Source: an uncultured Candidatus Sumerlaeota bacterium
GTDB lineage: Bacteria; CAYMEV01
Assembly (NCBI GenBank): GCA_964389675.1
Contig: CAYMEV010000012.1
Coordinates: 39,329-103,328, forward strand
DNA: 64,000 nucleotides
Direction of reading: 5' to 3'
The first letter of the stretch is position 1, and the number at the start of each line of letters is the position of its first letter. Below, piece by piece: positions 45,974 to 48,718 of the stretch. Under the pieces are notes generated by a model. That model did not search any database. It worked only from the letters and a program-made list of their open reading frames with translations, and had not been told where the DNA came from. The position numbers were made by a program, and so were the translations under genes.

Positions 45974-48718
45974 TTAATCTTCCTTTTTGGTATCTTTTAA
46001 GAGGATCTGTGCTATATCTTCAGGTATTACAGTATTTTTAAAGCTCTTTTGCTCTTCCTGTGTCTTTTTCATATAGTCTTTATACACTTCTTCCTCTTTT
46101 TTGCTTTCAATTCTCCTGGAGCTCGCAAAAACCATTTTACTGTCTTTGTCAATCCTTGTTATTACCGCTTTGACGGAATCGCCGATATGAACTGAGTCGC
46201 CTGTAAGTTCGCCCTGCCTGATAAAAGCATCGACACAGGGCATTATCTCTATGAAAACCCCTCCCTTTTCAGGCATGGAAACTACCTTTCCTTCAATTAT
46301 TGTATTTTCCCTGAATTTTTTCCTGAACAGCTCCCATATTGAAAGGCTAAGTTTCTTGTTCTTTTTATCAAGCTTAATTATCTCAGCTTCAATGATATCC
46401 CCGGTTTTTGGCTTTATATCCTTTTTCCCGTTAGGTATCTGAGAGATATGAAGCAGTCCGTCAATATTGCTGGATATATTCACAAAACAGCCGAAATCCT
46501 CCCACTGCACTACCCTGCCCTGTATAGCATCACCAAGTTTCATCTTTTCAAATAGAATATTGACAGGATTTGGCTCCAGCTGTTTTATAGAAAGGGAGAT
46601 CCTTTTCTTTGAGGGATTGATATCAATTATCTTTGCTTCAACATTATCCCCCAGTTTATAAAGGCTGTTCATGTCAGGCGCATTGTCATCCCATGATATC
46701 TCTGACTGATGGATAAGACCGTCTATATCATCATTAAGCTTCACAAATATCCCGAAATCAGTAATATTGTTTATCTCCCCCTTGATTACACTGTTTACCG
46801 GATGTTCAGTGGAAAATGCCTCCCATGGGTTATCCAGACACTGCTTAAGAGACAAGGATATCCTTTTATCCTCTGTATTTATATCAATTATCTCTACCTC
46901 GATCATATCACCAACATTGCCATACTGTTCAGGATTCCTTGTAACCTTGTCCCACGAAAGCTCACTCACATGAAGCAGGCCCTCCACCCCGGGTTCGAGC
47001 TGAACGAAAAAGCCATAGGGTTTGATTGACATTATGGTGCCCTTGATCCTCTGGCCAACTGTATACTTTGTGTTTACCAGAGTCCATGGATCAGCAGTTT
47101 TATCCTTATAGCTTATCCGGATTGAATTTTTCTTTTTATTTATAGATTTGATTATTGCTTCTATTTCCTGGTCCTTTTTAAAGAGGTCTGATGGTTTTTC
47201 TATCCTTCCCCAGCTCATTTCCTTCCTGTGCATGAATGCGGTAATGCCGTCAACGTCTGCTATAAGGTGGTCAGGCTCCAGCTTTCTTATTATTGCCTTA
47301 ACAAGCTGTCCCTTATATAGCCTGTCAAGTGTTTCACGCTGGATTTTCCTTATCTCATCCTCAAGAAGGTGCCTTCGGCTAAGGATTATCTTCTTTCTTT
47401 CCGGTTCAATAGACAGGATCTTTGTGTCTATAATAGTGCCGAGAGGTATTTCATCCTCTTTATATATGCTTATGTGGCCTGCCGGTACAAATCCGCTGAG
47501 AACGCCAAGGTCAACCACTATTCCTCCATTGTTCGCGTGCTGTACTACCTTGCCCCTGATTTTTCCCCCGCTGTCTTCCAGTTCTTTCAGCCTGTCCCAT
47601 AACAATATCTTGTCTGCACGGATTTTTGAGATCTTCAGGTTTCCCTGTTCATCCTCAGTATTTTCAACATATACAGATACTTCGCCGCCTTCCCTGAAAT
47701 TCTCATCCTTAAGCTCTATTTCCCTTGAAAACTCATTTATAGGCAGTATGCCTTCCGATTTGAATCCAATATCAATAAAAACATCACTATCAGTAATCCG
47801 TATAATTTTACCTTTTACTATCTGTTTTGCCTTTATACTGCCAATGTTCGTATCATAATCTTCGATCATCTGGGCAAAGCTCATATCGTCATCCTGGCCG
47901 GATGCTTTATCATCCTTCGGCAGCTGGATATCACTATGGTCTTCTTTTGCAGCCGTACCTCCATCTTTATTTATGTCAGTGTTATTAGTTTTATCATCTT
48001 TAAGGATGTCTCCATTCTCATAATTATCCATCTTACTTAAAGAACCTCCATTATCTTCTATTTTCAAATTGATTATATCTGCAATCTTATTTATTACATC
48101 TTCAAAACTGAGACTGGTAGTGTCAATGAGAATACTGTCCTCTGCCGGTTTCAGCGGGTCTATCTCCCTGCTGGAGTCACGTATGTCCCTTTTTTCAATC
48201 TCACCTTCAATACTGTCCAAATCTCTTTCAATATTCTGCTCACAGTAATCCTTCTGGCGTCTTTTTGCTCTTTCACCCACAGCAGCAGTCATATAGATCT
48301 TGATTTCAGCATTGGGAAAAAGCACTGTTCCGGTATCCCTGCCCTCTGCAATTATATTCTCGACCTTTCCGCGCAGATTATCTGCATAGTCCTTTATGAT
48401 ATTCCTTACTTCCTGTATCTGGGATATGCATGAAGCATAGTGCGATATCTCAGGCTTTCTTATCAGGTCAGTCACATCCTGTGAATTGAGAATATACCTC
48501 ATAGCGGAGCCACTGTGCCTAATATCAGGGGTTATGCTGTCAAGGTGTGATATTATACCCTGTCGGTCTTCAGCATCTATACCCTTTTGCAGATAATAGT
48601 AGCCGATAGTTCTGTAAAGCGCACCGCTGTCAAAGTAAAAAAATCCGTACTTTTCTGCCAGGGCTTTTGAAACCGAACTTTTCCCTGAGCCGGATGGTCC
48701 ATCAATTGTTATAATCAT
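45974..48718 (-). CDS. Bifunctional cytidylate kinase / 30S ribosomal protein S1 fusion
   Basis: 914 aa; N-terminal Cmk (IITIDGPSGSGKSSVSKALAEKYGFFYFDSGALYR), an acidic low-complexity linker, then multiple S1 domains. Confidence 0.85.
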   Translation of the reverse strand: MIITIDGPSGSGKSSVSKALAEKYGFFYFDSGALYRTIGYYYLQKGIDAEDRQGIISHLDSITPDIRHSGSAMRYILNSQDVTDLIRKPEISHYASCISQIQEVRNIIKDYADNLRGKVENIIAEGRDTGTVLFPNAEIKIYMTAAVGERAKRRQKDYCEQNIERDLDSIEGEIEKRDIRDSSREIDPLKPAEDSILIDTTSLSFEDVINKIADIINLKIEDNGGSLSKMDNYENGDILKDDKTNNTDINKDGGTAAKEDHSDIQLPKDDKASGQDDDMSFAQMIEDYDTNIGSIKAKQIVKGKIIRITDSDVFIDIGFKSEGILPINEFSREIELKDENFREGGEVSVYVENTEDEQGNLKISKIRADKILLWDRLKELEDSGGKIRGKVVQHANNGGIVVDLGVLSGFVPAGHISIYKEDEIPLGTIIDTKILSIEPERKKIILSRRHLLEDEIRKIQRETLDRLYKGQLVKAIIRKLEPDHLIADVDGITAFMHRKEMSWGRIEKPSDLFKKDQEIEAIIKSINKKKNSIRISYKDKTADPWTLVNTKYTVGQRIKGTIMSIKPYGFFVQLEPGVEGLLHVSELSWDKVTRNPEQYGNVGDMIEVEIIDINTEDKRISLSLKQCLDNPWEAFSTEHPVNSVIKGEINNITDFGIFVKLNDDIDGLIHQSEISWDDNAPDMNSLYKLGDNVEAKIIDINPSKKRISLSIKQLEPNPVNILFEKMKLGDAIQGRVVQWEDFGCFVNISSNIDGLLHISQIPNGKKDIKPKTGDIIEAEIIKLDKKNKKLSLSIWELFRKKFRENTIIEGKVVSMPEKGGVFIEIMPCVDAFIRQGELTGDSVHIGDSVKAVITRIDKDSKMVFASSRRIESKKEEEVYKDYMKKTQEEQKSFKNTVIPEDIAQILLKDTKKED

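What the first reader, a model, noticed from the sequence alone, without database searches (positions are those of the whole stretch)
45974..48718. Cytidylate kinase fused to ribosomal protein S1, with an acidic low-complexity linker
A single 914-aa ORF joins a complete Cmk domain to a multi-S1-domain protein through a roughly 70-aa Asp/Lys/Asn-rich linker. The cmk-rpsA adjacency is common and the fusion is known in a few lineages, so it may be a useful phylogenetic marker for this organism.
Basis: partly seen in the sequence, partly recalled or inferred. Interest (0 to 1): 0.28.

Follow-up and report, generated by a model that had tools for sequence, protein, structure and literature searches.

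The report
Cytidylate kinase fused to ribosomal protein S1
A real single gene joins the nucleotide-recycling enzyme cytidylate kinase to ribosomal protein S1; this fusion is already known and has arisen several times in bacteria, but it nearly always keeps S1's own ribosome-binding site and start codon inside it, so it probably still makes free S1 as well.

Summary
A 914-aa ORF on the minus strand (45974-48718) encodes a complete Cmk domain (1-217), a 61-aa acidic disordered linker, and a full S1 protein. It is not an artefact: four clade members from independent assemblies keep the frame despite linker indels.

The kind is known. T. pallidum TP0279 is annotated as this fusion, and I found it in Brachyspira, other Spirochaetia, Ca. 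Desulfofervidus and Marinimicrobia. It is recurrent: fused proteins were never monophyletic in 200 bootstraps, and 78 of 80 sampled species genomes have the genes adjacent but separate. It therefore marks this shallow clade only.

Two further findings. First, a Shine-Dalgarno motif plus in-frame start lies just after the Cmk domain (here GGAGG 48049-48045, ATG 48031-48029). It is strong in 7 of 10 fused lineages and conserved down to 52% identity in this clade. I infer stop-codon loss with S1's initiation site retained, giving free S1 plus a minor Cmk-S1 product. Second, this clade has a seventh S1 domain, although a published survey of 1453 sequences reports one to six.

Two products are inferred, not shown. 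Interest is modest.

The parts
45974..48718 (-). Whole cmk-rpsA fused ORF, 914 codons plus the stop at 45974-45976
   Evidence: ORF list; Pfam and NCBIfam matches; an identical protein is in the public collection from a 110,873-bp NCBI contig.
48719..48839 (-). A/U-rich 5' intergenic leader of the fused gene, with no Shine-Dalgarno motif before the ATG at 48718
   Evidence: Sequence. The SD scan of window genes found no SD-like 4-5-mer in -22..-4 for this gene, whereas 25 of 46 ORFs have one. The promoter scan was not above chance.
48068..48718 (-). Cytidylate kinase domain, residues 1-217
   Evidence: PF02224 covers 1-210 of 211 profile positions and TIGR00017 scores 220 bits. Solved Cmk structures match at E 5e-45 to 1e-25. 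The P-loop is G7-P-S-G-S-G-K13-S14. R36, R105, R127-D128, R177-D178 and D181 are invariant in 21 fused proteins; R184 is conserved in at least 90% of them. AlphaFold pLDDT is 85-92.
47885..48067 (-). Acidic low-complexity linker, residues 218-278
   Evidence: Composition and charge. pLDDT is below 50. Outside the SD/ATG island, identity is 35%, 14% and 14% to the three clade members, against 84%, 78% and 51% in the S1 core, and all indels are in frame.
48045..48049 (-). Internal Shine-Dalgarno-like GGAGG (codons G224-G225, GGA-GGT), 13 nt upstream of the internal ATG
   Evidence: Sequence. It is identical in L001, L004 and L092, although GGA and GGT are only 17-36% and 18-25% of Gly codons in these genes. 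It is the only 5-mer SD plus ATG combination in the whole gene; the background rate is about 1 per 3000 codons.
48029..48031 (-). Internal in-frame ATG (codon 230), candidate start of a stand-alone S1
   Evidence: Conserved in all four clade members. Equivalent SD-plus-start pairs lie at the same boundary in 13 of 14 fused genes from 10 lineages. Local RNA folding is weaker than the gene median (-3.2 against -6.2 kcal/mol) and GC is 0.29 against 0.41.
47831..47884 (-). S1 N-terminal segment, residues 279-296 (MSFAQMIEDYD...), equivalent to the E. coli S1 helix that anchors S1 on ribosomal protein S2
   Evidence: HMMER aligns SFAQMIEDY to E. coli S1 residues 4 onward (SFAQLFEES). AlphaFold predicts a helix at 281-291 inside an otherwise disordered stretch. 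PMC4288201 shows residues 1-18, with Phe5 and Phe9, are the primary S2 anchor. Here F281 corresponds to Phe5 and I285 occupies the Phe9 position.
46334..47830 (-). Six canonical S1/OB domains, residues 297-795 (beta-strand blocks about 300-364, 386-447, 472-536, 557-623, 644-710, 731-793)
   Evidence: Pfam S1; NCBIfam S1 equivalogs; AlphaFold pLDDT mostly 75-93 with the five-strand pattern repeated six times; alignment to solved S1 chains.
46103..46303 (-). Seventh, degenerate S1 domain, residues 806-872, specific to this clade
   Evidence: On its own it scores 34.9 bits against PF00575 (cut-off 22), E 2e-8; the P0429 copy scores 22.4 bits. hhalign against a D4 profile gives 94.6% probability, E 7e-8, with an 8-residue loop deletion. 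AlphaFold on the C-terminal fragment gives five strands at pLDDT 80-89; the full-length run did not fold it. Absent from P0004, P0005 and Brachyspira. It is 78%, 70% and 51% identical within the clade, like the S1 core.
45977..46102 (-). Conserved Lys/Glu-rich C-terminal tail, residues 873-914
   Evidence: 95%, 76% and 48% identity in the clade. Low-confidence helices in both models. No family match.

Best explanation
The gene is a genuine in-frame merger of the widely conserved neighbours cmk and rpsA. It arose in this unnamed, deep-branching lineage by loss of the cmk stop codon, independently of the spirochaete fusion.

Both halves look functional. Cmk is complete with an intact P-loop and catalytic arginines. 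S1 is complete, with its S2-anchoring N-terminal helix, six canonical S1 domains, and a clade-specific seventh domain and tail.

The acidic 61-aa linker is the translated former junction. At its start it still carries S1's own translation-initiation region: GGAGG, 13 nt, then ATG at codon 230.

I therefore propose that the locus makes two proteins. One is a stand-alone S1 of about 685 aa, initiated internally at the SD-led ATG, which supplies the ribosome. The other is a less abundant full-length Cmk-S1, initiated at the SD-less upstream ATG, which supplies cytidylate kinase activity and can also dock on the 30S subunit through the S1 helix.

Shown: the ORF, the domains, conservation of the frame, conservation and recurrence of the SD-plus-start pair, and polyphyly. 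Inferred: use of the internal start, relative abundance of the two products, enzyme activity and ribosome binding.
For: ORF and domains.

Not an artefact: four clade members from independent assemblies, with in-frame linker indels.

Stop-loss route:
- 78 of 80 species genomes have cmk immediately upstream of rpsA.
- In the unfused Spirochaetales genome L037, cmk ends in TAA and the rpsA ATG follows 9 nt later in the same frame.
- In fused genes the internal start lies 26-40 codons after the Cmk 'DTT' motif, where the Cmk domain match ends.

Retained initiation site:
- GGAGG-N13-ATG is identical in members at 77%, 69% and 52% identity, while the rest of the linker falls to 14% identity.
- Strong SD-plus-start pairs also occur in L002, L009, L021, Desulfofervidus, Marinimicrobia and L097. 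They are weak in L003 and Brachyspira and absent in L098.
- There are 9 strong hits in 546 boundary codons against 2 in 11,708 other codons, Fisher p = 3e-11.
- These sites are less structured than the gene median in 11 of 12 genes.
- The organism uses AGGAGG-type SDs, yet the fused gene's own start has none.

Precedent for separate rpsA expression: E. coli rpsA promoters lie inside cmk (PMC8565310).

N-terminal additions to the S1 anchor are tolerated: a FITC-labelled peptide and an S2-S1 chimera both bind (PMC4288201).

Independent origin: fused proteins were never monophyletic in 200 bootstraps.
Against: - No expression, proteomic or ribosome-profiling data exist for any of these genes, so use of the internal start is unproven.
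- The 13-nt SD-to-ATG spacing is at the long end of what other genes in the window show.
- Gly-Gly...Met could be conserved as a peptide hinge, and with four sequences RNA-level and peptide-level constraint cannot be fully separated.
- One fused lineage (L098) has no internal start and two have only weak SD-like motifs, so the fusion can evidently work as a single product.
- The low RNA structure is confounded by the A-rich linker composition.
- Phe9 of the E. coli anchor helix is Ile here, and F9A abolishes binding in E. coli.
- The tree is a neighbour-joining tree on deep divergences, and the statistics treat partly related sequences as independent.
- Internal promoters were not detected.
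Confidence: 0.55

Rival explanations
1. Single-product bifunctional protein. Only the 914-aa polypeptide is made. The GGAGG...ATG is a decaying relic of the ancestral rpsA start, or simply encodes a Gly-Gly hinge followed by a Met, and has no role in initiation.
For: L098 (Spirochaetia) lacks any internal start, and Brachyspira and L003 have only weak SD-like motifs. The spacing of 13 nt is long. Peptide conservation extends 11 codons past the ATG in the three closest members.
Against: A relic should have decayed like the rest of the linker, which is at 14% identity, yet the nucleotides GGA-GGT...ATG persist to 52% protein identity despite being minority Gly codons. The same feature recurs in independently fused lineages far more often than elsewhere in the genes. 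Making a minor nucleotide kinase in a fixed 1:1 ratio with S1, which sits on the ribosome, would be wasteful; that last point is inference from general knowledge.
Confidence: 0.27
2. Adaptive tethering. The fusion is selected because it places cytidylate kinase on the ribosome or mRNA platform, or on S1-associated RNA-decay machinery, so that CMP released by mRNA turnover is rephosphorylated locally. The fusion protein is then the main functional form.
For: The cmk-rpsA linkage is conserved across Bacteria (PMC5431349). Cmk activity influences 5'-end-dependent mRNA decay in E. coli (PMC8565310). The S2-anchor helix is retained directly after a flexible linker. The fusion recurs in at least five lineages.
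Against: Recurrence is equally expected from near-neutral stop loss between tightly packed, same-frame neighbours such as L037. Linkers are non-homologous and range from about 24 to 199 aa. Most bacteria keep the genes separate. There is no evidence here of any Cmk-ribosome contact; AlphaFold pTM is 0.37 with no confident inter-domain packing.
Confidence: 0.15
3. The S1 half is a non-ribosomal paralogue, an RNA-binding partner for Cmk, and the true rpsA lies elsewhere in the genome.
For: The score is below the cut-off of several S1 equivalog models, for example TIGR00717 at 487 against 577. It has an unusual seventh domain and tail. Phe9 is replaced by Ile in the anchor helix.
Against: It passes two NCBIfam S1 equivalog cut-offs, PRK06299.1-2 and PRK06676. 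The six-domain order and the N-terminal anchor align end to end with E. coli S1. It occupies the canonical position immediately downstream of cmk. No other S1 or cmk gene is in the 64-kb window, though the rest of the genome was not available.
Confidence: 0.06
4. Assembly or sequencing artefact: a frameshift, a missed stop or a chimeric join.
For: Raw reads were not examined, and the window comes from a metagenome-type contig.
Against: The same ORF occurs in assemblies from four different sources or samples, at 52-77% identity, with conserved synteny and frame-preserving indels. The architecture is present in 21 of the 150 best-scoring 50%-identity cluster representatives.
Confidence: 0.02

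Closest known systems
[quoted passage not shown]
   Same: Same order (N-terminal Cmk, linker, C-terminal multi-domain S1) in one ORF. Brachyspira also has a Met with a weak SD-like motif in its linker.
   Different: About 30% identity. The window clade never groups with the spirochaete fusions to the exclusion of unfused genomes (0 of 200 bootstraps), so the origin is independent. The spirochaete proteins have six S1 domains, shorter linkers (about 30-50 aa) and no C-terminal extension. The host here is a free-living-type genome with a large signalling repertoire, not a reduced pathogen.
Fused cmk-rpsA of Ca. Desulfofervidus auxilii (796 aa) and Ca. Marinimicrobia (925 aa)
   Same: Same architecture, and the same strong internal SD-plus-start just after Cmk: GGAGG-N8-ATG and GGAGG-N10-GTG.
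   Different: Non-homologous linkers (about 29 aa in Desulfofervidus), six S1 domains, and different gene neighbourhoods: scpA-scpB-rluB upstream in Marinimicrobia against a PtsN-like EIIA here.
The E. coli cmk-rpsA operon (separate genes)
   Same: Same gene order. rpsA is expressed partly independently of cmk, through promoters inside cmk (PMC8565310 citing Fricke et al. 1995). The S1 N-terminus SFAQLFEES is equivalent to SFAQMIEDY here.
   Different: In E. coli a stop codon and an intergenic region separate the two genes. Here they are one reading frame and the former junction is translated.
IspH-S1 fusion (NCBIfam NF000907, 'bifunctional 4-hydroxy-3-methylbut-2-enyl diphosphate reductase/30S ribosomal protein S1')
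   Same: Another enzyme fused to the N-terminus of S1. The S1 part of the window protein matches this model at 553 bits.
   Different: A different enzyme. The window protein is below that model's cut-off of 624 and matches only its S1 portion (profile 283-639).
Bacterial genes with in-frame internal initiation giving long and short isoforms (for example infB IF2 isoforms and cheA long/short; from general knowledge, not examined here)
   Same: An in-frame SD-plus-start inside a longer ORF that would give a nested shorter product.
   Different: In those cases both isoforms are experimentally shown. Here the second product is only predicted, and the two products would differ by a whole enzyme domain.

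Membership tests
Cytidylate kinase type 1 (PF02224 / TIGR00017) | Full-length match to the family profile above the curated cut-off | tested here: met
   PF02224 at 220.2 bits (cut-off 26), profile 1-210 of 211; TIGR00017 at 220.1 bits (cut-off 135.55).
Cytidylate kinase type 1 (PF02224 / TIGR00017) | P-loop GxxGxGK[ST] and the catalytic arginine equivalent to E. coli R41 | tested here: met
   G7-P-S-G-S-G-K13-S14 is read from the sequence. R36 is invariant in 21 fused proteins. It corresponds to E. coli R41 by the +5 offset of the alignment to 1kdo/1cke; the offset mapping is my inference. R41E is inactive in E. coli.
Cytidylate kinase type 1 (PF02224 / TIGR00017) | CMP/dCMP phosphorylation activity | not testable with these tools
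   Needs an enzyme assay.
Ribosomal protein bS1 | Match to curated 30S S1 equivalog models above cut-off | tested here: inconclusive
   Passes PRK06299.1-2 (544.7 against 524) and PRK06676 (475.8 against 368). Falls below TIGR00717 (487 against 577) and several other S1 sub-models.
Ribosomal protein bS1 | Tandem S1/OB domains in the canonical six-domain order | tested here: met
   Co-linear alignment with E. coli S1 over residues 4-267 in D1-D3, where the query fragment ended, with a second match into D4-D6. TIGR00717 (rpsA) is matched over profile positions 2-515 of 516. Six confident OB folds in AlphaFold. There is also an extra seventh domain.
Ribosomal protein bS1 | N-terminal segment that anchors S1 on protein S2 (E. 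coli Phe5 and Phe9) | tested here: inconclusive
   SFAQMIEDY aligns to SFAQLFEES and a helix is predicted at 281-291. Phe5 is kept (F281) but Phe9 is Ile285; F9A abolishes binding in E. coli. The cognate S2 is not in the window.
Ribosomal protein bS1 | Physical association with the 30S subunit, and being the only S1 gene of the genome | not testable with these tools
   Only 64 kb of the genome is available, and there is no other S1 in it.
Cmk-S1 fusion proteins (TP0279-like) | Cmk and multi-domain S1 in one uninterrupted ORF, with Cmk N-terminal | tested here: met
Cmk-S1 fusion proteins (TP0279-like) | Common descent with the spirochaete fusion (orthology rather than convergence) | tested here: not met
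   Fused sequences were monophyletic in 0 of 200 NJ bootstraps; window clade plus spirochaete fusions excluding unfused genomes also 0 of 200. So it is the same architecture, not the same orthologous fusion event.
Genes with nested in-frame internal initiation (two isoforms) | Conserved in-frame SD plus start codon inside the ORF | tested here: met
   GGAGG-N13-ATG is conserved in four clade members, and analogues occur in 9 of 10 lineages.
Genes with nested in-frame internal initiation (two isoforms) | Two protein products actually made | not testable with these tools
   Needs proteomics, western blotting or initiation-site ribosome profiling.

The most novel reading that the evidence does not exclude
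Cmk-S1 'fusions' are really two-product genes. A conserved internal ribosome-binding site makes ribosomal amounts of free S1, while a minor read-through Cmk-S1 isoform carries a CMP kinase to the mRNA-binding platform of the 30S subunit through the S1 anchor helix. That would couple recycling of CMP from mRNA turnover to translation. The arrangement would have evolved repeatedly by single stop-codon losses. In this clade S1 has in addition expanded to seven domains.
Probability: 0.2. Interest if true: 0.55.

Novelty: new member of a known kind. Interest (0 to 1): 0.32.

Why it matters
The fusion is not new in itself, but three points are useful.

1. It is far more widespread, and arises more repeatedly, than the literature suggests. 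A 2026 preprint still describes the T. pallidum architecture as unreported elsewhere and ties it to genome reduction. Annotation hides the fusion, because the same protein is called either 'S1' or '(d)CMP kinase'.

2. The retained internal SD and start offers a simple, testable answer to an obvious puzzle: how a cell can fuse a low-abundance enzyme to a protein needed once per ribosome. It also warns that 'Rosetta-stone' fusions between translationally coupled neighbours may not mean a single polypeptide.

3. A seven-domain S1 extends the published 'one to six' rule.

None of this overturns current understanding, so interest is modest.

Tried and rejected
- **Rfam scan of the window:** only a tRNA, and no leader or regulatory RNA near the gene.
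- **Sigma-70 promoter and terminator scan of 45700-49000:** 14 hits against 10.1 ± 2.7 expected and none inside the cmk part on the coding strand, so the idea of internal promoters, by analogy with E. coli, is untested rather than supported.
- **Exact look-up of the window protein's own contig:** not on record.
- **FtsH as a taxonomic marker:** unnamed relatives at 66-85% identity, and named hits only at 55-58% (Syntrophorhabdaceae, Nitrospirota), which is cross-phylum background. The NJ grouping with Desulfofervidus and Syntrophus has only 30% bootstrap support. The phylum is left open.
- **Metagenome scan with the single protein:** recovered only the already known 77% relative.
- **Homology search with domain 7 plus the tail:** returned nothing, not even the query's own protein, so it is uninformative about whether the extension exists elsewhere.
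- **Full-length AlphaFold:** did not fold domain 7; the fragment run did.
- **Met279 as the internal start:** considered because it directly precedes the SFAQ helix and has AGGA at 7 nt. Rejected as the conserved site because the SD is absent in L001 and the Met is absent in L004 and L092.
- **Antisense ORFs at 46709-47029 and 47148-47858:** treated as shadows of the long ORF.
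Full report
**Observation.** A 914-codon ORF runs from the ATG at 48718 to the stop at 45974-45976 on the minus strand. Pfam places a complete cytidylate kinase domain at residues 3-217 and seven S1 stretches further on. NCBIfam gives cmk (TIGR00017) at 220 bits against a cut-off of 135.6. It also gives two 30S S1 equivalog models above their cut-offs, although several other S1 sub-models are below theirs. Residues 218-278 form a 61-aa linker with 14 Asp, 8 Lys and 6 Asn and net charge -9. AlphaFold models Cmk at pLDDT 85-92 and six OB folds between 300 and 793 at about 75-93, and leaves 221-293 below 50.

**Artefact check.** I could not see reads. The same ORF is present in a JGI contig at 77% identity with the same neighbours (L001), in two Logan contigs at 69% (L004 and L005), and in two ENA contigs at about 52% (L092 and L093). 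The linkers differ by indels of 4, 4 and 22 codons, all frame-preserving, while linker identity outside one small island falls to 14%. A frameshift or missed stop in this one assembly is excluded.

[quoted passage not shown] Brachyspira has a 799-aa version named only '(d)CMP kinase'. An exhaustive HMMER search found that 21 of the 150 best 50%-identity cluster representatives carry both domains, with linkers of about 24-199 residues. Source names place fused proteins in Spirochaetia, Ca. Desulfofervidus auxilii (called 'S1' by one source and 'cytidylate kinase' by another) and Ca. Marinimicrobia. In a sample of 80 species-representative genomes retrieved with Cmk motifs, 78 have cmk and rpsA adjacent but separate, and only two are fused. 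A 2026 preprint states that the T. pallidum architecture was not previously reported in other species and links it to genome reduction. The present survey contradicts that. The window itself encodes a large signalling and metabolic repertoire.

**One origin or many.** I built a neighbour-joining tree of concatenated Cmk and S1 regions from 27 fused and 78 unfused sequences. It spreads the fusions over spirochaete-like groups, an FCB-like group with Marinimicrobia, and the window clade near Desulfofervidus and unfused Syntrophus and Syntrophorhabdaceae. In 200 bootstraps the fused sequences were never monophyletic. The window clade never joined the spirochaete or Marinimicrobia fusions to the exclusion of unfused genomes. 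Parsimony needed 5-9 changes of state. This is a crude method for deep divergences, but the conclusion of recurrence is robust to it. The fusion is thus a synapomorphy of the four-member clade at most, not a deep phylogenetic marker. The lineage itself remains unnamed: FtsH has unnamed relatives at 66-85% identity and named ones only at 55-58%.

**Anatomy of the junction.** Directly after the linker, SFAQMIEDY aligns to residues 4 onward of E. coli S1 (SFAQLFEES), and AlphaFold predicts an isolated helix at 281-291. In E. coli this segment is the primary anchor of S1 on protein S2, through Phe5 and Phe9, and it tolerates N-terminal attachments (PMC4288201). Here Phe5 is kept and Phe9 is Ile. 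So a normal S1 N-terminus is embedded intact.

At the start of the linker, four codons after the last Cmk helix predicted by AlphaFold (205-223), the DNA reads GGAGG (48049-48045), 13 nt, then ATG (48031-48029, codon 230). That arrangement is identical in L001, L004 and L092, although the intervening codons differ and GGA and GGT are minority Gly codons in these genes.

Genes in this window do use AGGAGG-type SDs, but the fused gene's own start has none. Internal 5-mer SD-plus-ATG combinations are rare, about one per 3000 codons once probable mis-called starts are set aside, and this is the only one in the gene.

**The same feature in other fusions.** I examined DNA for 14 fused genes from 10 lineages.

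| Lineage | Motif and spacing | Strength |
|---|---|---|
| Window clade (4 genes) | GGAGG-N13-ATG | strong |
| L002 | AGGAGG-N11-ATG | strong |
| L009 | GGAGG-N5-ATG | strong |
| L021 (Spirochaetia) | AGGAG-N12-ATG | strong |
| L095 (Desulfofervidus) | GGAGG-N8-ATG | strong |
| L096 (Marinimicrobia) | GGAGG-N10-GTG | strong |
| L097 | GGAGG-N7-ATG | strong |
| L003 | 4-mer SD-like motif | weak |
| Brachyspira (L091, L094) | 4-mer SD-like motif | weak |
| L098 (Spirochaetia) | none | absent |

Strong SD-plus-ATG pairs number 9 in 546 boundary codons against 2 in 11,708 other codons, Fisher p = 3e-11. The sequences are not all independent. The starts lie 26-40 codons after the Cmk 'DTT' motif, where the Cmk domain match ends. 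These sites are less structured than the gene median in 11 of 12 genes and locally GC-poor, though the A-rich linker composition confounds this.

**An intermediate state.** The unfused Spirochaetales genome L037, which sits among fused relatives in the tree, shows the presumed ancestral arrangement. cmk ends in TAA and the rpsA ATG follows 9 nt later in the same frame. One point mutation would create a fusion of exactly the observed kind.

**Interpretation.** The simplest reading is recurrent stop-codon loss between tightly packed, same-frame neighbours, with S1's initiation region retained under selection. The locus would then make free S1 from the internal start and a minor Cmk-S1 from the SD-less upstream start. 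E. coli offers a precedent for independent rpsA expression, through promoters inside cmk. I could not detect such promoters here. That two products are made, that Cmk is active, and that either form binds the ribosome are all inferences.

Three rivals remain open and are scored in the report: a single-product protein with a relic or hinge motif, an adaptive ribosome-tethered kinase, and a non-ribosomal S1 paralogue.

**Seventh S1 domain.** Residues 806-872 alone pass Pfam's S1 threshold at 34.9 bits, E 2e-8. They match a D4 profile at 94.6% hhalign probability, with an 8-residue loop deletion. In a fragment model they fold as a five-stranded barrel at pLDDT 80-89, although the full-length model failed there. 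The domain and the 42-aa Lys/Glu-rich tail are as conserved within the clade as the S1 core and are absent from other fusions. A survey of 1453 S1 sequences reports a range 'strictly' from one to six domains (PMC6705787), so this is a small extension of that range.

**Verdict.** This is a real feature and a new member of a known kind of fusion, in an unnamed lineage, with modest intrinsic interest. The added value lies in three points: the fusion is recurrent, it hides behind inconsistent annotation, and it usually keeps S1's own start site. The last point gives a clear and inexpensive experimental test.

Noticed in passing
window 45971-45976; L001 8730-8733: The fused gene and the convergent histidine-kinase gene (44888-45973, + strand) abut with no spacer: the two stop codons are adjacent on opposite strands. 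In L001 the two genes overlap by 4 nt. There is no room for a terminator between convergent genes.
   Followed up: no
window 48840-49325 (-) and 49442-52483 (+): Upstream of the fusion lie a PtsN/fructose-type PTS EIIA-like gene and, divergently, a 1013-aa protein with only a weak GlnD uridylyltransferase-like match. The pair is syntenic in L001, and the GlnD-like gene also in L004. It may be a nitrogen-regulatory module.
   Followed up: partly
L037 4640-4690 (Spirochaetales bacterium SZUA-475): cmk ends in TAA and the rpsA ATG follows 9 nt later in the same frame. This is a one-mutation intermediate between the separate and fused states, in a genome that groups with fused relatives.
   Followed up: yes
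protein clusters of P0127/P0393, P0043 and P0408: Identical or near-identical Cmk-S1 fusion proteins are named '30S ribosomal protein S1' by one source and 'Cytidylate kinase' or '(d)CMP kinase' by another. No 'bifunctional Cmk/S1' NCBIfam model appeared among the 25 families shown, although bifunctional PanC/Cmk, AroA/Cmk, Cmk/Der and IspH/S1 models did.
   Followed up: partly
P0394 (CAD7779030.1): A protein in the same 90%-identity cluster as the Ca. Desulfofervidus auxilii fusion (also 796 aa) is recorded under 'Candidatus Methanoperedenaceae archaeon GB50', on a 2,539,117-bp contig. That is almost the size of the Desulfofervidus genome (2,540,211 bp).
   Followed up: no
bioRxiv 10.64898/2026.05.05.717303: The preprint lists the T. 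pallidum Cmk-S1 architecture as not previously reported in other species and interprets it as a hallmark of genome reduction. The fusion is in fact present in several free-living lineages.
   Followed up: yes
window 14814-17828 (+) and 14681-15376 (-): A 1004-aa ORF has only a weak PEP-synthase or PigC-like match over residues 477-659. Its mechanically called TTG start overlaps a 231-aa ORF on the other strand, so the true start is probably further downstream.
   Followed up: no
window 35734-38217 (-): An 827-aa protein has a PilT-type ATPase in its C-terminal half (470-809) and a long N-terminal region (141-405) with a weak flavoprotein-subunit-like match. This is an unusual extension for a PilT family protein.
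   Followed up: no
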